From a virus (taxonomy: Duplodnaviria > Heunggongvirae > Uroviricota > Caudoviricetes), in the IMG/VR virus record IMGVR_UViG_2703718869_000013, positions 33,127 through 97,126 of that record: a DNA stretch of 64,000 nt, one strand, 5' to 3'. The notes below the pieces were generated by a model. That model saw nothing but the letters and a program-made list of their open reading frames with translations, searched no databases and was not told the origin of the DNA. Numbering within the stretch: position 1 is the stretch's first letter; the number at the start of each line of letters is the position of its first letter. A program made the position numbers and the translations under genes. Shown here one piece after another: positions 4,656-52,720 of this stretch.

Positions 4656-5165
4656 ATGGGACACAATAACACTAAGGGAAACCGTAAATTTATTAAGGGC
4701 CGCTATACTGCCAACGCGGCCAAAGGCGAACGACTGGTATCTTCTGAATTCCAGCTCACTTTTGCAGGCCGTGAAGATATCAGCGTACTGGTTCGTACGT
4801 CGCAAATTCCTGAAATGACCCGCGAGGATGTGGAGGACTATGGTCCGAATGGTGTGAAGTTCAACCAGCACGGACCAATTCGAAACTCTGGGGAAATCCA
4901 GGTCCAGTGCGTGGAGACTATCGAAGGCGATATTCTTCAGTTCATCAAGGATCGCATTGCGGCGAAGGACTATGTTGATATCACGATGGCTGCTACCCCT
5001 GAATCCAAATCTTCCGGGGTTAACGCTGTGACAAAAGCTGCTACAACAATTGAAATGTTGGACTGCAAAATCTACAGTGATGCAATCGACTTTAGTACCG
5101 AAGATGTGACTGCCGCTGTGCGCCCGTCACTTCGTATCGTTTACAACTGGATTGAGTGGGATTAA
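4656..5165 (+). CDS. putative tail structural protein
   Basis: 169 aa ORF, last gene of the + strand late operon; followed by a strong terminator. Confidence 0.35.
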   Translation: MGHNNTKGNRKFIKGRYTANAAKGERLVSSEFQLTFAGREDISVLVRTSQIPEMTREDVEDYGPNGVKFNQHGPIRNSGEIQVQCVETIEGDILQFIKDRIAAKDYVDITMAATPESKSSGVNAVTKAATTIEMLDCKIYSDAIDFSTEDVTAAVRPSLRIVYNWIEWD

Positions 5166-5184
5166 GAGTCACCCCTTGTATTTT

Positions 5185-5208
5185 AAAGCTCCTACGGGAG
5201 CTTTTTTG
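5185..5208 (+). terminator. rho-independent terminator of the late structural operon
   Basis: Stem aaagctcc / ggagcttt with loop tacg, followed by tttt. Confidence 0.65.
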
Positions 5209-5248
5209 TGCTTAAATTATGCCGGTATAGCGAAATTTTGAGCATATT

Positions 5249-5545
5249 ATGGAAATTGATTTTTCATACTCTCCTGAAACGATAGAACGAAGATTCGAAA
5301 TAATTGGATGCAAAACTATTTCAGAGGAGCATTATTGGATTCTCTATGATGCCAATACATGGTTATGTGCCTTAGCAGAATGTCGGCCATCGTTATGTGC
5401 AGGGGAGGGAGGACTTCGACATAAGGTGCTGGCTACACTTGAAGTGAACACGTTACGATATTGGTGTGTCGAAATACTTAGGGATAACAAAGAATTACAT
5501 TTATTATTGCTGAATAAGTGTGCGCCTCTGCGCAGGAAAGCATAA
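5249..5545 (+). CDS. hypothetical small protein (AT-rich island)
   Basis: 98 aa ORF in AT-rich DNA after the terminator; weak RBS; no recognisable family. Confidence 0.3.
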   Translation: MEIDFSYSPETIERRFEIIGCKTISEEHYWILYDANTWLCALAECRPSLCAGEGGLRHKVLATLEVNTLRYWCVEILRDNKELHLLLLNKCAPLRRKA

Positions 5546-5711
5546 GAAAACCCAACCGCCATACTGGAATTATCAGAAGAATATGTGCGGAAAGTTATAG
5601 CTAGCTATTGAAAAGCTAAAGTAGATCGGTTAGATTTACTTTACTCATCTACCATGCGTAGAAAGAGCGATCGAACCCGATACATAGCAATATGTGTCGG
5701 GTTCAGCTTTT

Positions 5712-6176
5712 TTATGTCCCAAGTGCTCTTTTTCTGCTTTGTTTGAGTGTTCTGATTTTACTGTCATAGGTTACAACATAGGCTGTTTTGAGAAGCCAAT
5801 AGTCTCTACGTGCGGATAGCACAACAACGTAGTTTTCACACTCGTTCCAGATTACCCACTCTTCAGTTGGTCCTCGTCTTTCAGACCAACATGATATATC
5901 GCAATGGTCATAATTCCTTATCATATGCGCGATCCAGCGGATCCGCTTACACCGTTCAAGATCTGGTATTCGTTCTTCTTCTATTTTTCCCTCTGATACT
6001 AAATGCCAAAATCCGAACTCTTTCCCATCATATTCCGGTGAATAACGTAATCGAACAGGGAGACCCTTAAACGTTATATTAGAGATTAAAATATCTTCTC
6101 TAACAACATCATATACATCGTCTATATACTCTTGCCAACTTCCATTGAAGTACAATAAATCTGGCATTTGAAGCAT
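5712..6176 (-). CDS. hypothetical protein, downstream partner of a coupled two-gene operon
   Basis: ATG at 6176-6174 preceded by GGGAGG; its start overlaps the stop of the upstream gene (TGATG); AT-rich; no family recognised. The listed ORF extends to 6191. Confidence 0.5.
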   Translation of the reverse strand: MLQMPDLLYFNGSWQEYIDDVYDVVREDILISNITFKGLPVRLRYSPEYDGKEFGFWHLVSEGKIEEERIPDLERCKRIRWIAHMIRNYDHCDISCWSERRGPTEEWVIWNECENYVVVLSARRDYWLLKTAYVVTYDSKIRTLKQSRKRALGT

Positions 6177-6880
6177 CAGCGAGCCTCCCACACGAAAATA
6201 TTAAATTTACTTTCTGTTGGAAGAGTGCTTTTTAGTAACTCCCTGTTTGTATGTGATTTTATCCTGTTTATGACTTGGATTTTTCCCGCGTTGCTATTCA
6301 TTCCTCGATGAACGTAGCCTAACGCACCAATGAAAAGATCCGTTAGCTGCAATTGTTGCACTTCATGAGATCGTATATGTTGAATTCTGTTTATCGACTC
6401 ATGATTGTAATCATAGCGATCATTGTGAAGAACTCCTCTTAATTTCTCAATTTTTTCAATACCTAAAGTATCTTTTATATCTAGGTAGATATTGTATGTG
6501 TTGTTACTTTCTATTATGTTTTTTAAGACATAAAAAAACATCTTATAATAGAAAGTATTATGATCTTGATGGAATCGAGCATGGTCCAGTTGCTCTTTAT
6601 CAGGAACAACAACACCTCTAAAGCGCAATGCTGGGTTGCTGAAGAAGTAATCTACGACCTCTAAGTAAAATTCAACTTTGGACGCAGATACTTTAGTCCA
6701 CTTGATTTCGAAATCAGGTTTTAAATTGTGTTTTAATTTTAATCCCTTGATGTCTCTAGCAATTTTTTTTGTGATAGTGCCAGGACACCAAAGCGCACCC
6801 AATACCATGACTTTATTATGATCATTTAGTAGGTGACAGGATTCATCGCAGAATACATTAAATGTTCTTCGGTTCAACAT
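6176..6880 (-). CDS. hypothetical protein with an N-terminal FNVFCDES motif (DUF3800-like, tentative)
   Basis: 234 aa; N-terminal hydrophobic strand followed by D-E-S as I remember for DUF3800-type proteins; AT-rich; coupled to the downstream gene. Confidence 0.45.
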   Translation of the reverse strand: MLNRRTFNVFCDESCHLLNDHNKVMVLGALWCPGTITKKIARDIKGLKLKHNLKPDFEIKWTKVSASKVEFYLEVVDYFFSNPALRFRGVVVPDKEQLDHARFHQDHNTFYYKMFFYVLKNIIESNNTYNIYLDIKDTLGIEKIEKLRGVLHNDRYDYNHESINRIQHIRSHEVQQLQLTDLFIGALGYVHRGMNSNAGKIQVINRIKSHTNRELLKSTLPTESKFNIFVWEAR

Positions 6881-7048
6881 GTTAACTCCACTTATTGTTA
6901 GGTAGAATTGTCCGTTAGTTGTTTATTAATTGCAATAATTGGACGTTCTGATTTGCTAACTACGTCATCTTACCAGGACGCCTATGAGTTTTCCTCATGG
7001 CAAACTAGAGGTGTTGAAAGTATGCATGGTTATAATTAGAGCAATCTA

Positions 7049-7894
7049 TCACCCTCTGAATCCTACCGGTATACCCCATTGTTCGTTATCTTTATTTTTG
7101 GCTAATACCGCATTAAGAGCTTCGTTTACCGTCATGCAATGCGGTAGATTATCGAAGTTTGATATCCAGCCAATATCAGGAGAACGCTTGTTCTTCAGGT
7201 AAGCATATTTCCGCGCTGCCGCCTCTACTTTCTGCTTGAACTCATGTTTTTGAGCGCGTTTTTTGGATAACCGCAGATTGTCAGCCTTTGCTTTTGCTTC
7301 AGCGATCCATGAAGTCAATTTTTTGAGTCTGGTCGTTCCGGCACCGCCGGAAACTGATCTTTTTGTTTTTTTAACTTGTGACTTCTTATTCTTTATTGCC
7401 ACGTCATCCTGACAGGGGGAGGGGGTATCATTTTGACATGGGGGTGTGGATAAAAAATTAAATAAAGCCAATGTCTTAGCGAGAACAGCTTTAACCTTGG
7501 TTGCCGCTGAAGAGATCTTTAATTTGCTTTCAATCAGCGCATTTTTGGCTTGTTGTGCGAAGGCCAAAAAGGATGGTGTAAACCGGTACAGGTTAGCGCG
7601 ACGTTCACGGTGATCGCCGATAACAATCTCTACAGACAGAATTCCTTTGTTTACAGCTTCACGGAATGCACGAACGACGGTTGATTGGCTATAACCAGTT
7701 TCTGCCGCGATCAGGCGGTGAGGCTTGTGAATGAAGTATTCACTGGTTGTTGCCGCTAGATTTGCACATTGCGACAGGATATGCCCGGCGCTACGAGATA
7801 GACCGGAGTGTGTTACAAAGCAGGCCAATTCATAGCCAGAAAAAGTAAAATCGCTCATCGTTATACAGCTCAGGAAAGTGACTTTAGCCAGCAT
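7049..7894 (-). CDS. repL: RepL-like lytic replication initiator
   Basis: 281 aa, immediately downstream of a KilA-N protein as in the P1 kilA-repL operon; identification by size, position and basic C-terminal half. Confidence 0.6.
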   Translation of the reverse strand: MLAKVTFLSCITMSDFTFSGYELACFVTHSGLSRSAGHILSQCANLAATTSEYFIHKPHRLIAAETGYSQSTVVRAFREAVNKGILSVEIVIGDHRERRANLYRFTPSFLAFAQQAKNALIESKLKISSAATKVKAVLAKTLALFNFLSTPPCQNDTPSPCQDDVAIKNKKSQVKKTKRSVSGGAGTTRLKKLTSWIAEAKAKADNLRLSKKRAQKHEFKQKVEAAARKYAYLKNKRSPDIGWISNFDNLPHCMTVNEALNAVLAKNKDNEQWGIPVGFRG

Positions 7895-8888: not shown

Positions 8889-9932
8889 TTAACCTATTGC
8901 TACTGGTTTTAACAAACCAGCATCAAGTAGCTTGCGAGTTAACCACTGCTGGCCTTTACCCGTTAATTGGGGCGTCAGCCGTATCTGGTAGCCATTTTCA
9001 TCATCCAGCACCACTTCTTTCACCGTGAAATACCCGGCGTTAATGTACTGCTGGCGCGGTACGTTTTTGCGCGCACCAAAAGCCATGAGAATGCCGTTCT
9101 GGCGCAACCATGAGAAAAGGGCGTTTTGCTTAAGTCCAACGACCTTTGCAAAGTTCCCGATCAGGATTCCATTAGCCGCTGATACCCGGTCGGCAAAATC
9201 GACTTTAGGGGCTGCGGCCACCAGCTGTTGTTCCAACTGCATTTTCTGTTCTGCCAACTCGGCAGCCAGGCGTAGAGCTTCTGGTAATGTTTGGGGGATC
9301 GATGGGGTAGGGGAGTTTGCCTGCTGCAATTCTTCCAGTTTGTCGATCAGCGAACGGCGGACCGCTTTTGACTCGCGCGCGGCGACTCGCAAGGCTTGTT
9401 TGTAGGTCATGGTGATGACCTCAAAAGAGCGCCCAGCCCTTGTGCCATGGGATTTTGCACTTTTTGTGTAAAATTCACCTTCAAGTTCATCGAGTATTTT
9501 TTCGATGAATTTATTGTTTCTAACCTCTGGTTCTCCACATAACTTGCGTGCCTCATTGACCATCTTCAACAATGTTTGGCTGTCGATTGTGTCTCCGGTG
9601 TTGGGGATGACATTCACGGCTGGTGTTGGCGTAGCTGACGTAACAGGTGCTGGTTTCTCAACATTCAAATTTTTACCGGTCACTCTATGTGCCTCCTTTC
9701 TCATTTCTGCTGCCACCGTTGCGTAACGTAGACGTCCTTGTTCAATCAAATAATCCCTGATCTCGGCTATCAGTAGCCTGTTGATCACAGCCTTATCTGT
9801 TCGGGTATAAAAACGCCTGGTTATCATGAAATAGTTGGCAATTGCGCCGGGGATCTCCCGTGTCGGCATACAGGCAGTATGCAGGGCGATTGCTTCGGCT
9901 ATGTCATTACGGGTGACGAGAGGTTTTTTCAT
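8889..9932 (-). CDS. ant: antirepressor Ant (immI-like module A)
   Basis: 347 aa with a conserved ANT C-terminal domain; start overlaps the stop of a 73-aa icd-like ORF (ATGA), indicating translational coupling. Confidence 0.75.
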   Translation of the reverse strand: MKKPLVTRNDIAEAIALHTACMPTREIPGAIANYFMITRRFYTRTDKAVINRLLIAEIRDYLIEQGRLRYATVAAEMRKEAHRVTGKNLNVEKPAPVTSATPTPAVNVIPNTGDTIDSQTLLKMVNEARKLCGEPEVRNNKFIEKILDELEGEFYTKSAKSHGTRAGRSFEVITMTYKQALRVAARESKAVRRSLIDKLEELQQANSPTPSIPQTLPEALRLAAELAEQKMQLEQQLVAAAPKVDFADRVSAANGILIGNFAKVVGLKQNALFSWLRQNGILMAFGARKNVPRQQYINAGYFTVKEVVLDDENGYQIRLTPQLTGKGQQWLTRKLLDAGLLKPVAIG

Positions 9933-10150
9933 AAAACCCCCTGAACGTCGGCAGAGAAGGGGAGGTTCCAGTAACTAAGTGAATTGCGCGAGTTAGTTGA
10001 AAAACGGGCAGTAAAAATGCAGGGGCCATCAGGCAATTGAGAGCGTGCTTCGTCTTCTGTTGCTGCGATAACGAAGTGATAGTGGTGTTTTTTACAGGAA
10101 TAGAAACGCCAGATGAATTCTTGGCGTGCGCAAGGATTGGCATTAACCAT
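9929..10150 (-). CDS. icd: Icd-like small protein (module A)
   Basis: 73 aa (MVNANPCARQEFIWRF...), conserved in four copies, each directly upstream of and overlapping an ant gene. Confidence 0.6.
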   Translation of the reverse strand: MVNANPCARQEFIWRFYSCKKHHYHFVIAATEDEARSQLPDGPCIFTARFSTNSRNSLSYWNLPFSADVQGVL

Positions 10151-10224
10151 AGTTACGGCCTCACTAACAGGTTTAACAACCTGCTACCCGCTGTCAAACA
10201 GGTGGCAGGACGTGACAGGGTTGA

Positions 10225-10300
10225 CAGACTGGCGTTAGTGAAACCAGCAGGCCGAAGCCTCCCCATCACGCCCCACCATAATTCGGGCGTAACGCGGTTT
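10225..10300 (-). ncRNA. c4: c4-like antisense RNA (module A), approximate ends
   Basis: Conserved core (ggtggggcgtgatggggaggcttcggcctgctggttt on the minus strand) followed by heptamer CACTAAC; complementary GTTAGTG occurs upstream (plus 10345-10351) and at the icd RBS (plus 10162-10168). Confidence 0.55.
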
Positions 10301-10397
10301 ACGGACACAAAAATACCGCAATATCGGAAATCTGCGGTTGTCCGCACTAACATTCAGGCTGTCAAACCTGGTCGCAGAATTTGCTACGACGGCAGAA

Positions 10398-10425
10398 CTA
10401 TAAGCCTGAACGATTAAAAGGTCAA
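10398..10425 (-). promoter_or_regulatory. sigma70-like promoter of module A (TTGACC-N16-TATAGT)
   Basis: Reverse complement gives ttgacc then 16 nt then tatagt; the same element is conserved upstream of modules B and C. Confidence 0.5.
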
Positions 10426-23576: not shown

Positions 23577-24154
23577 TGACATTCAGAATGAGTGAACAAT
23601 CACGGACCATAAAAATTTATAATCTACTGGCTGGAACCAATGAGTTTATTGGTGAAGGTGATGCATACATTCCACCTCATACAGGTCTGCCTGCAAACAG
23701 TACCGATATTGCCCCGCCAGATATTCCGGCTGGCTTCGTGGCCGTTTTCAACAGTGATGAGGCATCGTGGAATCTCGTTGAAGACCATCGGGGAAAAACC
23801 GTCTATGACGTGGCTTCCGGCGACGCGTTATTTATTTCTGAACTTGGCCCATTACCGGAAAATGTCACCTGGTTATCCCCGGAAGGGGAGTTTCAGAAGT
23901 GGAACGGCACAGCCTGGGTGAAAGATGCAGAAGCAGAAAAACTGTTCCGGATCCGGAAGGCGGAAGAAACAAAAAACAGCCTGATGCAGATGGCCAGTGA
24001 GCATATTGCGCCACTTCAGGATGCCGTAGATTTGGATATTGCGACGGAGGAAGAGGCATCGTTACTGACTGCATGGAAGACATATCGGGTATTGTTGAAT
24101 CGTGTTGATACAACAGTAGCATCGGATGTTGAGTGGCCAGTCGCCCCGCAATAA
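23576..24154 (+). CDS. tfa: tail fibre assembly protein (lambda Tfa-like)
   Basis: 192 aa, [44 protein letters not shown]..., near-identical over most of its length to lambda Tfa as I recall it. Confidence 0.85.
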
Positions 24155-37683: not shown

Positions 37684-37717
37684 ATTGCTCTAATAAATTT
37701 GATTTATTAGAGCAAAT
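37684..37717. promoter_or_regulatory. paired inverted C1-operator-like sites upstream of module B
   Basis: ATTGCTCTAATAAATTT (perfect consensus, 37684-37700) followed by inverted atttattagagcaaat (37702-37717). Confidence 0.7.
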
Positions 37718-37741
37718 AACCTACCATCGAACACGGCTCTA

Positions 37742-37770
37742 TTGATCTCATCGTCGTTCAGGCTTATAGT
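37742..37770 (+). promoter_or_regulatory. sigma70-like promoter of module B (TTGATC-N17-TATAGT)
   Basis: ttgatc 37742-37747, tatagt 37765-37770. Confidence 0.5.
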
Positions 37771-37869
37771 TCCACCGTCGTAGCAAATTCTGCGACCAGG
37801 TTTGACAGCCTGAATACTTGTGCGGACAACCGCAGATTTCCGATATTGCGGTATTTTTGTGTCCGTAAA

Positions 37870-37950
37870 ACCGCGTTACGCCCGAATTATGGTGGGGCGT
37901 GATGGGGAGGCTTCGGCCTGCTGGTTTCACAAGTGCCAGTCTGTCAACCC
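37870..37950 (+). ncRNA. c4: c4-like antisense RNA (module B), approximate ends
   Basis: Core ggtggggcgtgatggggaggcttcggcctgctggtttca followed by a' CACAAGT (37928-37934) and b' CTGTCA; complementary ACTTGTG at 37816-37822 and 38000-38006, and TGACAG upstream and downstream. Confidence 0.6.
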
Positions 37951-38017
37951 TGTCACGTCCTGCCACCTGTTTGACAGCGGGTAGCAGGTTGTTAATTCAA
38001 CTTGTGAGGCCGTAACT

Positions 38018-38239
38018 ATGGTTAATGCCAATCCTTGCGCACGCCAAGAATTCATCTGGCGTTTCTATTCCTGTAAAAAACACCACTATCACTTCGTTAT
38101 CGCAGCAACTGAAGACGAAGCACGCTCTCAATTGCCTGATGGCCCCTGCATTTTTACTGCCCGTTTTTCAACTAACTCGCGCAATTCACTTAGTTACTGG
38201 AGCCTCCCCTTCTCTGCCGACGTTCAGGGGGGTTTATGA
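38018..38239 (+). CDS. icd: Icd-like small protein (module B)
   Basis: 73 aa, stop overlaps the ant start; RBS overlapped by the ACTTGTG target heptamer. Confidence 0.6.
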   Translation: MVNANPCARQEFIWRFYSCKKHHYHFVIAATEDEARSQLPDGPCIFTARFSTNSRNSLSYWSLPFSADVQGGL

Positions 38240-39279
38240 AAAAACCTCTCGTCACCCGTAATGACATAGCCGAAGCGATCGCCCTGCATACTGCCTGTAT
38301 GCCGACACGGGAGATCCCCGGCGCAATTGCCAACTATTTCATGATAACCAGGCGTTTTTATACCCGAACAGATAAGGCTGTGATCAACAGGCTACTGATA
38401 GCCGAGATCAGGGATTATTTGATTGAACAAGGACGTCTACGTTACGCAACGGTGGCAGCAGAAATGAGAAAGGAGGCACATAGAATGACCAGTAATAATT
38501 TGAATGTTAAAAAACCAGCATCTGTTGCTTCAGCTACGCCATCACCAGCTGTGAATGTTATCTCCAACACTGGAGATACAATCGACAGCCAGACGCTGTT
38601 AAAGATGGTTAATGAGGCGCGCAAGCTATGTGGGGAAAATGAGATCCGCAATAACGATTTTCTCAATAGAATTAAGGATGAACTTGATGGGGAATTTTAC
38701 GAAACTTTCGTAAAATCCCATGGCACAAGGGCCGGGCGCTCTTTTGAGGTCATAACCATGACCTACAAACAAGCCCTGCGAGTCGCCGCGCGCGAGTCAA
38801 AAGCGGTCCGCCGTTCGCTGATCGACAAACTGGAAGAATTGCAGCAGGCAAACTCCCCTACCCCATCGATCCCCCAAACATTACCAGAAGCCCTACGTCT
38901 GGCTGCCGAGTTAGCAGAACAGAAAATGCAGTTGGAACAACAGCTGGTGGCCGCAGCCCCTAAAGTCGATTTTGCTGACCGGGTATCAGCGGCTAATGGA
39001 ATCCTGATCGGGAACTTTGCAAAGGTCGTTGGACTTAAGCAAAACGCCCTTTTCTCATGGTTGCGCCAGAACGGCATTCTCATGGCTTTTGGTGCGCGCA
39101 AAAACGTACCGCGCCAGCAATACATCAACGCCGGGTATTTCACGGTGAAAGAAGTGGTGCTGGATGATGAAGATGGTTACCAGATACGGCTGACGCCCCA
39201 ATTAACGGGTAAAGGCCAGCAGTGGTTGACGCGTAAACTGCTCGATGCAGGTTTATTAAAGCCTGTAGCGGCTGAGTGA
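38236..39279 (+). CDS. ant: antirepressor Ant (module B)
   Basis: 347 aa, about 90 percent identical to the module A Ant by eye; conserved ANT C-terminal domain. Confidence 0.75.
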   Translation: MKKPLVTRNDIAEAIALHTACMPTREIPGAIANYFMITRRFYTRTDKAVINRLLIAEIRDYLIEQGRLRYATVAAEMRKEAHRMTSNNLNVKKPASVASATPSPAVNVISNTGDTIDSQTLLKMVNEARKLCGENEIRNNDFLNRIKDELDGEFYETFVKSHGTRAGRSFEVITMTYKQALRVAARESKAVRRSLIDKLEELQQANSPTPSIPQTLPEALRLAAELAEQKMQLEQQLVAAAPKVDFADRVSAANGILIGNFAKVVGLKQNALFSWLRQNGILMAFGARKNVPRQQYINAGYFTVKEVVLDDEDGYQIRLTPQLTGKGQQWLTRKLLDAGLLKPVAAE

Positions 39280-45309: not shown

Positions 45310-45326
45310 ATTGCTCTAATAAATTT
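45310..45326. promoter_or_regulatory. C1-operator-like site upstream of module C
   Basis: ATTGCTCTAATAAATTT, perfect match to the consensus, followed by a degenerate inverted copy. Confidence 0.7.
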
Positions 45327-45496
45327 GATTTATTGGGGCAAATAAACTACTATTGGACGCCAGACTATTGATCTTCCTGTTGTTCAGGCTTATAGTTCCT
45401 ACGCCGTAGCAAATTCTGCGACCGGGTTTAGCAGCCTGAATGTACATGCGGACAACCGCAGATTTCCGATATTGCGGTATTTTTATGTCCGTAAAA

Positions 45497-45577
45497 CCGC
45501 GTTACGCCCGAATTATGGTGGGGCGTGATGGGGAGGCTTCGGCCTGCTGGTTTCATGTACGCCAGTCTGCTAACCCC
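45497..45577 (+). ncRNA. c4: c4-like antisense RNA (module C), approximate ends
   Basis: Same core as module B; a' CATGTAC (45554-45560) with targets GTACATG at 45442-45448 and 45626-45632; b elements TAGCAG / CTGCTA instead of TGACAG / CTGTCA. Confidence 0.6.
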
Positions 45578-45643
45578 GTCACGTCCTGCCACCCGTTTAG
45601 CAGCGGGTAGCAGGTTGTTAAACCTGTACATGAGGCCGTAACT

Positions 45644-45865
45644 ATGGTTAATGCCAATCCTTGCGCACGCCCTGAATTTATCTGGCGCTTTTACTCCTGC
45701 CAGAAACGCCACTATCACTTCGTTATTGCACCGACAGAAGATGAGGCACGTTCTCAGCTTCCGGATGCTCCCTGCATTTTCTCCGCACGCTTTTCTACTG
45801 ACTCGCGCAATTCTCTCAGTTACTGGTGCCTCCCTGTTAACGCTTCTGTTCAGGAGGGGCTATGA
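45644..45865 (+). CDS. icd: Icd-like small protein (module C)
   Basis: 73 aa paralog; stop overlaps the ant start. Confidence 0.6.
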   Translation: MVNANPCARPEFIWRFYSCQKRHYHFVIAPTEDEARSQLPDAPCIFSARFSTDSRNSLSYWCLPVNASVQEGL

Positions 45866-46974
45866 GAACGTCATTAGTCACCCGTGAAGAGATGATCGAG
45901 GCAATTGAACAGCACACAATCTGTATCAGCACCAGGGATATACCAGGCGTTATTGCCAACTACTTCATGATCACCAAACAACTTTACCGGAGAAAGGACA
46001 AGAACGCGGTTCACCGTATCCTGTTGTCTGATATCCGCGAATACCTGCTCGAACAGGGTCATCTGAATTACGCAACCGTCGCAGCCGAAGCACGCAAGGA
46101 GGCACACAGAATGAAAGCAACTAACGTTAAATCAGAAAAAATTTATGCACCTTCAGTTCAGGAATCGGAACTGGTGGTTGTTCAGAATCAGCCGGATGAA
46201 ATTCCCGTTCTGGAATGGCAGGGAGTACGTGTCGTAACAACCGAAACTCTTGCTAGAGGGTATGGGGTCGATGAAGCCAATATTCGCAACAATTTGTCTC
46301 GCAACCTTGACCGCTTTGAAGAAGGTAAGCATTACTTTCTTCTAACTGGTTTAAAATTAAGAGAATTTAAGAACAGAGTAACCGGAAGTTACTCTGTTGG
46401 TAAGAACGCCAGAAGCCTTACACTCTGGACAGAGCGCGGCGCTGCACGCATGTCTAAGATCGTGGACACAAATGAAGCATGGGCATTCTTTGAAAAACTG
46501 GAAGACAGCTACTTCCGGCAAAAAGAACAGCAACCGGTCGCAATCCCTCAGACGCTTCCCGAAGCTCTGCGCCTGGCTGCCGAGCTGGCTGAACAAAAGC
46601 AACTTCTGGAACAGAAAGCCCACCAGCTAAATCAGCAGCTGGTGGCCGCCGCCCCTAAAGTCGATTTTGCCGACCGGGTATCAGGGGCCAAGGGGATCCT
46701 GATTGGAAATTTTGCAAAGGTTGTTGGGCTTAAGCAAAACGCGTTGTTTGCCTGGTTACGGGGGAACGGCATCCTGATAGCGTCCGGTGGACGTAAAAAT
46801 GTGCCGTTCCAGCAATACATCAACGCCGGGTATTTCACGGTGAAAGAAGTGGTGCTGGATGATGAAGATGGTTACCAGATACGGCTGACGCCCCAATTAA
46901 CGGGTAAAGGCCAGCAGTGGTTGACGCGTAAACTGCTCGAAGCTGGCTTGTTAAAACCGGTGGCGGCTGAATGA
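45862..46974 (+). CDS. ant: antirepressor Ant, type 2 (module C)
   Basis: 370 aa; different central domain from modules A/B (AntA/ORF6N-like, PVLEWQGVRVVTTETLARGYG) plus the shared ANT C-terminus. Confidence 0.75.
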   Translation: MRTSLVTREEMIEAIEQHTICISTRDIPGVIANYFMITKQLYRRKDKNAVHRILLSDIREYLLEQGHLNYATVAAEARKEAHRMKATNVKSEKIYAPSVQESELVVVQNQPDEIPVLEWQGVRVVTTETLARGYGVDEANIRNNLSRNLDRFEEGKHYFLLTGLKLREFKNRVTGSYSVGKNARSLTLWTERGAARMSKIVDTNEAWAFFEKLEDSYFRQKEQQPVAIPQTLPEALRLAAELAEQKQLLEQKAHQLNQQLVAAAPKVDFADRVSGAKGILIGNFAKVVGLKQNALFAWLRGNGILIASGGRKNVPFQQYINAGYFTVKEVVLDDEDGYQIRLTPQLTGKGQQWLTRKLLEAGLLKPVAAE

Positions 46975-51048: not shown

Positions 51049-52167
51049 TTATTCAGCCGCCACCGGTTTTAACAAGCCAGCATCGAGCAGTTTACGCGTC
51101 AACCACTGCTGGCCTTTACCCGTTAATTGAGGCGTCAACCGTATCTGGTAGCCATCTTCATCATCCAGCACCACTTCTTTCACCGTGAAATACCCGGCGT
51201 TGATGTACTGCTGGAACGGCACATTTTTACGTCCACCGGACGCTATCAGGATGCCGTTCTCCCGTAACCAGACAAACAGCGCGTTTTGCTTAAGTCCAAC
51301 AACCTTTGCAAAATTCCCAATCAGGATCCCTTTAGCTACTGATACCCGGTCGGCAAAATCGACTTTAGGAGCGGCGGCCACCAGCTGCTGATTTAGCTGG
51401 TGGGCTTTCTGTTCCAGAAGTTGCTTTTGTTCAGCCAGTTCGGCAGCCAGGCGTAGGACTTCAGGAAGCGTCTGGGGGATTGCGATCGGTTGCTGTTCTT
51501 TTTGTCGGAAGTAGCTGTCTTCCAGTTTTTCAAAGAATGCCCATGCCTGATCGGTTTCGAGCATTTTAGCGTGGCGGGCTGCGCCGCGTTCTGTCCAGAG
51601 GGTGAGTGAGCGAACATTGCGAGCAATTTTTACAGAGTAGTTTAAAGCTACTCTGTGCTTCAACTCGCGCAATGATTCTCCTTCAACTTTGAAAAAGTGC
51701 TTCCCTTCAACAAAGCGTACTTTGTTCTCATGATGATTTTGGCGAATACGGATTGTTTCTGTCCCATACCCTCTCGCAAGAGTCTCGGTTGTCACTACAC
51801 GCACTCCCTGCCATTCCAGAACGGGAATTTCATCAGACTGATTCTGAACAACCACCAGCTCCGATTCCTGAACTGAAGGTGCATGAATTTTTTCTAATTT
51901 AACGTTATTTGCTTTCATTCTGTGTGCCTCCTTGCGTGCTTCGGCTGCGACGGTTGCGTAATTCAGATGACCCTGTTCGAGCAGGTATTCGCGGATATCA
52001 GACAACAGGATACGGTGAACCGCGTTCTTGTCCTTTCTCCGGTAAAGTTGTTTGGTGATCATGAAGTAGTTGGCAATAACGCCAGGTATATCCCTGGTGC
52101 TGATACAGATTGTGTGCTGTTCAATTGCCTCGATCATCTCTTCACGGGTGACTAATGACGTTCTCAT
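51049..52167 (-). CDS. ant: antirepressor Ant, type 2 (module D)
   Basis: 372 aa, close paralog of the module C Ant. Confidence 0.75.
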   Translation of the reverse strand: MRTSLVTREEMIEAIEQHTICISTRDIPGVIANYFMITKQLYRRKDKNAVHRILLSDIREYLLEQGHLNYATVAAEARKEAHRMKANNVKLEKIHAPSVQESELVVVQNQSDEIPVLEWQGVRVVTTETLARGYGTETIRIRQNHHENKVRFVEGKHFFKVEGESLRELKHRVALNYSVKIARNVRSLTLWTERGAARHAKMLETDQAWAFFEKLEDSYFRQKEQQPIAIPQTLPEVLRLAAELAEQKQLLEQKAHQLNQQLVAAAPKVDFADRVSVAKGILIGNFAKVVGLKQNALFVWLRENGILIASGGRKNVPFQQYINAGYFTVKEVVLDDEDGYQIRLTPQLTGKGQQWLTRKLLDAGLLKPVAAE

Positions 52168-52385
52168 AGTCCCTCCTGAGCAGAAGCGTTAACAGGGAGG
52201 CACCAGTAACTGAGAGAATTGCGTGAATCAGTGGAAAAACGGGCAGAGAAAATACATGGGGCGTCAGGAAGCTGAGAGCGAGCCTCATCTTCTGTTGGTG
52301 CAATAACGAAGTGATAGTGACGTTTTTGGCAGGAGTAAAAGCGCCAGATAAATTCAGGATGAGTTGGGGTAGGGATAGTAGCCAT
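52164..52385 (-). CDS. icd: Icd-like small protein (module D)
   Basis: 73 aa from MATIPTPTHPEFIWRF...; RBS AAGGAGG; the listed 187-aa ORF (to 52727) is an upstream read-through artefact. Confidence 0.55.
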   Translation of the reverse strand: MATIPTPTHPEFIWRFYSCQKRHYHFVIAPTEDEARSQLPDAPCIFSARFSTDSRNSLSYWCLPVNASAQEGL

Positions 52386-52469
52386 ATTGGCAGCCTCCTT
52401 AGACGTTGGTATGTAACCACCGCAGAAGAGACCAATCTTGCTGGCGGTGGACTGTACGGAGTTGGCCTT

Positions 52470-52530
52470 ACTGGCGTCCAAGGTAACCAGCCTACCCGAA
52501 GGTAGCCCCATACAGCCCACCATTGTAGAG
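52470..52530 (-). ncRNA. c4: divergent c4-like antisense RNA (module D), approximate ends
   Basis: Minus-strand core ggtgggctgtatggggctaccttcgggtaggctggtta; loop CTTGGACG can pair with CGTCTAAG at the icd RBS (one G-U wobble); GTCTAAG also upstream (plus 52581-52587). Confidence 0.45.
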
Positions 52531-52703
52531 GTGTGCGTGTACGCCGATACAAAAAAAGACGCGAGCGGCGTCTGTATCGCCTTAGACTTAAGCGGGAGGC
52601 CAATCCCGGCACCCGTTTTAATGAGGTGCCTGATAAGCATAAACCGAAAATGCCTCAAGGCGCAAGAGGTCAGGCTCAATGTAACATCGGTAGTTAAAAA
52701 ACA

Positions 52704-52720
52704 CAATTTATTAGAGCAAA
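52704..52720. promoter_or_regulatory. C1-operator-like site upstream of module D
   Basis: caatttattagagcaaa, 15 of 17 match to the operator consensus. Confidence 0.55.

What the first reader, a model, noticed from the sequence alone, without database searches (positions are those of the whole stretch)
5712..6880. AT-rich, translationally coupled two-gene operon after repL: candidate defence or abortive-infection module
Two genes (234 aa, then 154 aa) lie on the minus strand directly downstream of repL, with stop and start overlapping (TGATG) and base composition clearly more AT-rich than the flanking phage genes. The first has an N-terminal FNVFCDES motif that I associate with DUF3800-type proteins; the second matches nothing I recognise. 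Compact coupled pairs of atypical composition in phage accessory slots are typical of defence cargo. Caveat: canonical P1 has two uncharacterised genes (rlfA, rlfB) in roughly this position, so this may be their counterpart.
Basis: partly seen in the sequence, partly recalled or inferred. Interest (0 to 1): 0.65.

Follow-up and report, generated by a model that had tools for sequence, protein, structure and literature searches.

The report
P1 rlfA-rlfB: untested candidate defence pair
The two genes are the long-known but uncharacterised rlfA and rlfB genes of phage P1: an RNase H2-like nuclease and a small partner protein that travel together across many bacterial phyla, often inside restriction-modification operons, so they are a catalogued but still untested candidate anti-phage system, not a new discovery.

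Summary

Both proteins match PADLOC candidate PDC-M04, one of 145 untested "embedded" candidates. In 80 species-level genomes from many phyla, the B gene follows A in every locus with room for it. In 20-28% of loci the pair sits beside type I restriction genes.

In P1-like plasmids the pair occupies a swappable slot. Only 98 of 680 carry it; others carry hokD, Ail/Lom or unknown genes. CRISPRi showed both genes dispensable for P1 lytic growth.

Best reading: a nuclease-based immunity cassette carried as cargo. Function is inferred, not shown. The genes are already known, so interest is modest.

The parts
6176..6880 (-). rlfA: 234-aa DUF3800 protein with an RNase H2-like fold. Candidate catalytic residues are D12, E13, D134 (or D137) and D181, the last within the motif Q178-L-T-D181.
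5712..6176 (-). rlfB: 154-aa partner protein with no Pfam family. It has an alpha+beta fold with a four-stranded sheet. H58 is invariant, and R69, R75, R78, W57, W81 and W97 are nearly so.
6174..6178 (-). TGATG stop/start overlap that couples rlfA and rlfB, preceded by GGGAGG at 6189..6184.
   Evidence: Sequence. The same tight junction recurs in homologous loci: a 4-nt overlap in 28 and a 1-nt overlap in 17 of 77 loci, and all junctions lie within 17 nt.
7029..7045 (-). ATTGCTCTAATTATAAC, the counterpart of the P1 C1 operator Orlf (former Op55), starting 3 nt after the repL stop. Only the ATTGCTCTAAT half is shared with other slot alleles.
   Evidence: P1 annotation. The sequence is identical to P1 here. 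It has 5 mismatches to the operator consensus, so it was not found at 3 or fewer mismatches. Allele comparison. C1 binding was not tested here.
6907..6935 (-). Predicted weak promoter PrlfA (TTGCAA, 17 nt, GACAAT), taken from the P1 annotation.
   Evidence: P1 annotation. The sequence is identical in the window. It matches 8 of 12 consensus positions and falls below the threshold of the consensus scan. It is a prediction only.
5673..5704 (.). 14-bp hairpin between the convergent rlfB and pmgF genes. The T-run lies on the + strand, so it reads as the pmgF terminator and perhaps a bidirectional one.
   Evidence: Terminator scan. Conserved in P1.
5209..7034 (.). The exchangeable low-GC cassette (pmgF, rlfB, rlfA) in the repL-bplB slot of P1-like phage-plasmids.
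   Evidence: Alleles carrying hokD, a 198-aa ORF or Ail/Lom diverge from the window exactly after the bplB terminator and after ATTGCTCTAAT. Published as variable region 5 (PMC9603915).

Best explanation
The pair is P1 rlfA-rlfB, an instance of the widespread two-gene cassette that PADLOC lists as candidate PDC-M04. I read it as a nuclease-based immunity or abortive-infection module carried as accessory cargo in the exchangeable repL-bplB slot of P1-like phage-plasmids. RlfA is a metal-dependent nuclease with a type 2 RNase H fold and intact acidic residues, so it probably acts on RNA:DNA hybrids or structured nucleic acid. RlfB is made in fixed proportion by translational coupling and probably binds RlfA. 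It would serve either as the faster-evolving sensor or specificity subunit, or as a His/Arg-dependent RNase effector. The complex would stay latent until an invading phage or plasmid supplies its substrate or trigger, and would then degrade nucleic acid and stop the infection. Several steps are shown: identity with rlfAB, the fold of RlfA, strict A-B linkage and coupling, residence in restriction operons and mobile-element cargo sites, and dispensability for P1 growth. Other steps are inferred: complex formation, the substrates, the trigger, and any anti-phage effect at all.
Confidence: 0.55

Rival explanations
1. Toxin-antitoxin or addiction module. RlfB (or RlfA) is a growth-arresting nuclease held in check by its partner, and the pair stabilises the plasmid prophage and the genomic islands it sits in, with no dedicated anti-phage role.
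For: The two genes are tightly coupled. RlfB weakly resembles RelE, YafQ, HigB and colicin D toxins. The commonest alternative allele in the same P1 slot is the hokD toxin-antitoxin gene. Homologues sit in mobile elements. RlfB is found split into two ORFs beside an intact RlfA in Methylomonas and in a Desulfuromonadales genome, as expected if RlfB were a dispensable toxin.
Against: The upstream partner is a 234-aa, very highly conserved enzyme with intact catalytic residues. It is not a small, labile DNA-binding antitoxin. There is no profile similarity of RlfB to known toxin families. P1 already has phd-doc. Toxin-antitoxin behaviour and abortive infection are not mutually exclusive.
Confidence: 0.15
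2. Accessory function in P1 lytic replication, which is the original meaning of 'rlf' (replication-linked function). The RNase H-like RlfA would process the transcript or R-loop at oriL inside repL, or remove primers, with RlfB as a cofactor.
For: The pair lies immediately downstream of repL/oriL on the same strand, with no recognisable terminator between them. A C1 operator is annotated at the junction. The pair is co-induced with repL in P1vir infection. RlfA has an RNase H2 fold.
Against: CRISPRi knock-down of either gene leaves plating unchanged, though that screen also missed repL. 582 of 680 P1-like plasmids lack the pair yet keep repL. The cassette is low-GC foreign DNA with sharp junctions. 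In at least 15 phyla its homologues sit in restriction operons and islands with no phage replicon nearby. The 'replication protein' label of phrog_16230 only echoes the P1 gene name.
Confidence: 0.12
3. A weapon used by the phage during lytic growth. This could be host take-over, exclusion of competing phages from an induced cell, or counter-defence, for example destruction of RNA:DNA hybrid molecules such as retron msDNA.
For: The pair is placed in an early, C1-controlled transcription unit and is expressed during infection. The nuclease fold is specific for hybrids.
Against: Most homologues are chromosomal and co-oriented with host restriction genes, often with start codons overlapping the hsdS stop. 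This fits a host-protective role. Among 50,697 phage records, RlfA-like genes occur only in the P1/P7 group and a handful of other phages, those with a named host being prophage-type.
Confidence: 0.1
4. An accessory or regulator of type I restriction-modification, for example restriction alleviation or a guard of the enzyme, that P1 picked up by chance.
For: In 20 of 72 loci the upstream neighbour is a type I specificity subunit, and in 10-13 of 73 the downstream neighbour is HsdR. This is the position prrC occupies in the prr locus (my own knowledge).
Against: Most loci, including P1, the Enterobacter prophage and the E. coli integrative element, have no type I system next to the pair. P1 encodes a type III system, not a type I system.
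Confidence: 0.05

Closest known systems
Phage P1 rlfA/rlfB (P7 rapA/rapB)
   Same: Same genes, with the same position between repL and pmgF/bplB. Nucleotide identity is 97.2%, and 232/234 and 152/154 residues are identical. The operator and predicted promoter are the same.
   Different: Two conservative amino-acid changes in each protein. The window is closest to phage JL22 (99.8% nucleotide identity; RlfA 100% identical).
PADLOC phage defence candidate PDC-M04 (Payne et al. 2024 preprint, cassette CAS_00034)
   Same: Both proteins hit the A and B models over their full length, are adjacent and lie on the same strand. My independent sample reproduces the embedding in type I RM systems.
   Different: PDC-M04 is a prediction without experimental support. 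Here the cassette is not embedded in a defence system but sits behind a phage lytic replicon.
Type 2 RNase H (RNase HII / H2A)
   Different: Sequence identity is only 7-13%, and there is no RNase_HII Pfam hit. RlfA has an extra invariant Cys/His cluster next to the DE motif (C11, C15, H16, C32). Its partner RlfB is unrelated to the RNase H2 B and C subunits.
Retron type VII (DUF3800 effector) and TPR-DUF3800 accessory genes of Cas12a2/a3 and type VI-F loci
   Same: The same Pfam domain is used in immune contexts.
   Different: The window has no reverse transcriptase, msr/msd RNA or CRISPR array nearby. Retron DUF3800 proteins lack the Q of the QxxD motif, whereas RlfA keeps it. Those systems have no RlfB partner.
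PrrC anticodon nuclease in the EcoprrI (prr) locus
   Same: A latent RNase gene nested between hsdS and hsdR of a type I system. This is the placement seen for many RlfAB homologues. The comparison rests on my own knowledge of the prr locus.
   Different: PrrC is a single ABC-ATPase-type protein. There is no sequence or fold relation. In P1 the pair is not next to a type I system.
RelE/ParE, colicin D and CdiA 'BECR' RNase toxins

Membership tests
P1 rlfA/rlfB orthologues | High sequence identity to the P1 genes, and the same neighbours (repL upstream; pmgF and bplB downstream) | tested here: met
   97.2% nucleotide identity over 3 kb with conserved gene order. 232/234 and 152/154 residues identical.
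Pfam DUF3800 (PF12686) | Score above the gathering threshold; N-terminal DE motif and C-terminal QxxD motif | tested here: met
   53.1 bits against a cut-off of 21, covering profile positions 1-148 of 149. D12-E13 and Q178-L-T-D181 are present (D12, E13, D181 invariant; Q178 nearly invariant).
PADLOC PDC-M04 | An A-model protein and a B-model protein encoded adjacently on one strand | tested here: met
   PDC-M04A E 2.2e-95 and PDC-M04B E 3.5e-51. The genes overlap by one base.
PADLOC PDC-M04 | Protection against phage, needed for the step from candidate to defence system | not testable with these tools
   The literature held here lists PDC systems as untested. No paper links rlfA or rlfB to defence.
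Type 2 RNase H | RNase H fold with four acidic catalytic residues | tested here: met
Type 2 RNase H | Sequence membership (RNase_HII profile) and cleavage of RNA:DNA hybrids | tested here: not met
   No RNase_HII Pfam or NCBIfam hit. No PDB sequence hit. Enzymatic activity is not testable here.
RelE/BECR RNase toxins (for RlfB) | Significant fold or profile similarity | tested here: inconclusive
Type II toxin-antitoxin system | A small labile antitoxin with a DNA-binding domain paired with a toxin | tested here: not met
   The partner of RlfB is a 234-aa conserved enzyme with no DNA-binding domain hit. Toxicity and neutralisation are not testable here.
Retron type VII | A reverse transcriptase and msr/msd RNA next to the DUF3800 gene | tested here: not met
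   The neighbours are repL and pmgF. Rfam found nothing in 5100-7300.
DUF3800-associated RNA motifs (DUF3800-I to XI, drum, skipping-rope) | A structured RNA of one of these Rfam families near the gene | tested here: not met
   No hit in the region at E up to 10, in the whole window, or in 20 homologous loci.
Phage replication proteins (database label of RlfB) | Homology to a replication protein family, or a requirement for phage growth | tested here: not met
   No family hit apart from a PHROG that is named after the P1 gene. Non-essential by CRISPRi. Absent from most P1-like plasmids.

The most novel reading that the evidence does not exclude
RlfAB is a true and mechanistically new two-protein immune system. 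An RNase H2-like nuclease with an unusual Cys/His site at its active centre works with a His/Arg-dependent partner. Together they recognise an RNA:DNA hybrid or replication intermediate of an invader and shut the infection down. Phage P1, a laboratory workhorse for 70 years, would have carried the system unnoticed, under repressor control, so that it may act at induction or entry and not in the resting lysogen.
Probability: 0.3. Interest if true: 0.6.

Novelty: already known. Interest (0 to 1): 0.35.

Why it matters
If the cassette does protect against phages, it would turn one of the commonest untested candidates into a validated system. It was counted as 679 embedded cassettes in the PADLOC study. 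More than 5,000 close RlfA relatives were found here. It would give the DUF3800 domain, which also appears in retrons and CRISPR loci, its first defined activity. It would also explain a 20-year-old pair of 'replication-linked' genes in P1. The P1 copy is an unusually convenient entry point, because the genetics, a deletion-tolerant slot and natural alleles lacking the pair already exist. As it stands, the finding adds no new kind of system. It links two existing labels (rlfAB and PDC-M04) and adds structural and contextual detail.

Tried and rejected
- **DUF3800 RNA motifs.** I searched Rfam in the region (E up to 10), the whole window and 20 homologous loci. Nothing relevant appeared.
- **Solved structures by sequence.** Neither protein's profile gave a significant hit. 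The weak 'antitoxin' hit for RlfB (E 1.3) vanished with the larger profile.
- **Second check of the RlfB fold.** Foldseek against the PDB was not significant. I therefore treat the RNase toxin fold as a lead only.
- **Apparent RlfB fusions.** Longer proteins in the representative library (P0191, P0238, P0283) have low-complexity N-terminal extensions. They look like miscalled ORFs, not domain fusions.
- **Database names for RlfB.** 'Replication protein' (PHROG, RefSeq P1) and 'oxidoreductase' (NCBI) have no homology support.
- **Literature.** No paper holds 'PDC-M04' in its main text. The search for Op55 was swamped by unrelated hits. The 2004 P1 genome paper is not held.
- **C1 operator.** The operator after repL has 5 mismatches to the consensus and was missed at 3 or fewer mismatches. 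I rely on the P1 annotation for it.
- **Not possible here.** A model of the RlfA-RlfB complex, and inspection of active-site geometry.

Full report
**1. What is there**

The region holds two minus-strand ORFs. The first runs 6880..6176 (234 aa, ATG start). The second starts at the ATG at 6176..6174 and ends at 5712 (154 aa). The upstream TGA stop and the downstream ATG share one base (TGATG), and each start is preceded by a Shine-Dalgarno-like motif. The gene immediately upstream on the same strand (7894..7049) is repL. GC is 35.0% for the first gene and 39.1% for the second, against 44.8% for repL and 46.8% for the whole window.

**2. Identity**

A 3-kb query around the pair matches phage P1 at 97.2% nucleotide identity, P7 at 97.9% and phage JL22 at 99.8%, with the same gene order. 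[quoted passage not shown] It also annotates a C1 operator (Orlf, former Op55) just after the repL stop and a predicted promoter, PrlfA. The window proteins differ from P1 RlfA and RlfB by two residues each. Codon differences are mostly synonymous (8:2 and 9:2), which indicates purifying selection.

**3. The proteins**

- **RlfA conservation.** In 28 homologues from several phyla, 45 columns are invariant. They include D12, E13, D134, D137 and D181 (the DE and QxxD motifs) and a Cys/His cluster (C15, H16, C32, with C11 nearly invariant) next to the DE pair.
- **RlfB family.** RlfB has no Pfam, NCBIfam or PDB sequence match. A profile search of 1.8 billion representatives finds 1,788 relatives, almost all stand-alone proteins of about 150-190 residues. 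Over 143 of them only H58 is invariant. P5, F56, W57, R69, R75, R78, W81 and W97 are nearly so.

**4. The pair is one unit, found far beyond phages**

Both proteins hit the two components of the PADLOC candidate PDC-M04 (2.2e-95 and 3.5e-51). The source preprint derived 145 candidates from genes embedded in BREX, DISARM and type I RM systems. It lists this cassette (679 occurrences) as 'assign as candidate PDC-M04' and states that the candidates are untested. A later study excluded them for that reason.

I checked the association independently. A search seeded only on RlfA returned 80 loci, one genome per species. By record title they span Pseudomonadota, Bacteroidota, Nitrospirota, Chloroflexota, Cyanobacteriota, Desulfobacterota, Acidobacteriota, Actinomycetota, Bacillota and others, all at 48-75% identity. 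The results were:

- An RlfB-profile hit lies immediately downstream on the same strand in all 79 of these loci that have room for it. The one exception is cut by the contig end.
- The A stop and the nearest in-frame B start overlap by 4 nt in 28 loci and by 1 nt in 17, out of 77.
- RlfA is more conserved than RlfB (mean pairwise identity 58% against 40%), and their divergences correlate (r 0.50).
- The gene just upstream is a type I specificity subunit in 18 of 72 loci (Pfam) or 20 of 72 (PADLOC).
- The gene just downstream is HsdR in 10-13 of 73 loci.
- Other neighbours include GmrSD/HEC-06, type III and MmeI-type enzymes and KwaB.

Individual loci show the same picture. Methylomonas has hsdM-hsdS-A-B-hsdR. 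An Algoriphagus integrative element has hsdMS, a reverse transcriptase, A-B, hsdR and a pAgo. In an Enterobacter prophage and an E. coli integrative element the pair sits next to the integrase. No DUF3800-associated RNA motif accompanies this subfamily.

**5. The P1 setting**

Of 680 P1-like plasmids that match the flanks, only 98 carry this allele. The others carry an 81-aa ORF plus hokD, a 198-aa ORF, or an Ail/Lom gene. The alleles diverge exactly after the bplB terminator (about 5208) and exactly after ATTGCTCTAAT, the conserved half of the operator (7035). The exchangeable cassette is therefore window 5209-7034. This corresponds to the published low-GC 'variable region 5'.

Among 5,426 complete E. 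coli genomes, 121 carry the pair, almost always on plasmids. Among 50,697 phage records, RlfA-like genes occur only in the P1/P7 group and a few other phages. CRISPRi knock-down of rlfA or rlfB does not reduce P1 plating. The genes are transcribed during P1vir infection.

**6. Interpretation**

The strict linkage, the coupling, the spread across phyla by transfer, the residence in restriction operons and cargo sites, and the dispensability for P1 all point to a self-contained accessory module. The best fit is nuclease-based immunity or abortive infection (confidence 0.55). RlfA is the likely catalytic core. RlfB is either the faster-evolving sensor or a second RNase.

Against this, nothing has been tested, and the slot also carries non-defence cargo. 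In P1 the pair sits in a repressor-controlled early lytic context, so expression in the lysogen is unproven. The rivals are a plain addiction module (0.15), a lytic replication aid (0.12), a lytic-phase weapon or counter-defence (0.10) and a restriction accessory (0.05). The replication reading is weakened by dispensability, by absence from 86% of P1-like plasmids, and by the non-phage contexts of homologues.

**7. Novelty and score**

The genes have been named since the P1 genome annotation, the slot's variability is published, and the cassette is already in PADLOC as a candidate. What this analysis adds:

- the explicit link rlfAB = PDC-M04;
- the exact cassette boundaries;
- an unbiased confirmation of the restriction-operon association;
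- the RNase H2 fold match, with invariant acidic and Cys/His residues;
- the conservation pattern and tentative fold of RlfB.

That makes it a good, cheap experimental target, but not a new kind of system. Novelty is 'already known' and interest is 0.35.

Noticed in passing
window 8889-10403 (-), 37684-39279 (+), 45310-46974 (+), 51049-52720 (-): The window holds four c4-icd-ant (ImmI-type) immunity modules, whereas the stretch of the P1 reference record examined here annotates one such module. Each of the four has a C4 antisense RNA hit above the Rfam threshold and an Ant-like ORF of 347-372 aa, and a C1-operator-like site lies nearby. A 73-aa icd-like ORF was seen in modules 2 and 3. Ant copy 2 is 94% identical to the canonical Ant. 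Copies 3 and 4 are about 55% identical to it and 88% to each other. The first three c4 copies differ mainly in a short central segment (ACTAACG / ACAAGTG / TGTACG), which may be the target-pairing region; the fourth is divergent throughout.
   Followed up: partly
window 5715-6176 (-): RlfB carries unsupported database names: 'replication protein' (PHROG 16230, RefSeq P1) and 'oxidoreductase' (NCBI, several genera). No Pfam, NCBIfam or PDB sequence similarity backs either name.
   Followed up: yes
window 6179-6880 (-), residues 11-32 of RlfA: An invariant or nearly invariant Cys/His cluster (C11, C15, H16, C32) flanks the catalytic DE motif of this RNase H-like protein. It could be a structural or regulatory metal site.
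   Followed up: no
L002-L004 (Methylomonas, about 10684-11178 in L002) and L031 (884-1381): In these loci RlfB is split into two ORFs while RlfA is intact, so loss of RlfB beside an intact RlfA is tolerated.
   Followed up: no
L005/L015 (Algoriphagus pacificus), about 6180-17620 in L005: A dense island on an integrase-bearing element: fused hsdM/S, a 502-aa reverse transcriptase, RlfA, RlfB, hsdR, a 325-aa unknown protein and a Piwi-domain Argonaute. It is the only locus where I saw a reverse transcriptase directly upstream of the pair.
   Followed up: no
window 23919-24117 (+) and 52552-52629 (-): Rfam hits above threshold to the IS009 RNA and to the isrK Hfq-binding sRNA. The isrK hit lies next to the fourth C4 copy.
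   Followed up: no
window 5186-5208 (+): The bplB terminator hairpin (AAAGCTCCTACGGGAGCTTTTTT) is the exact left breakpoint shared by all slot alleles. The right breakpoint falls inside the C1 operator. This suggests cassette exchange by recombination at these two short conserved elements.
   Followed up: partly
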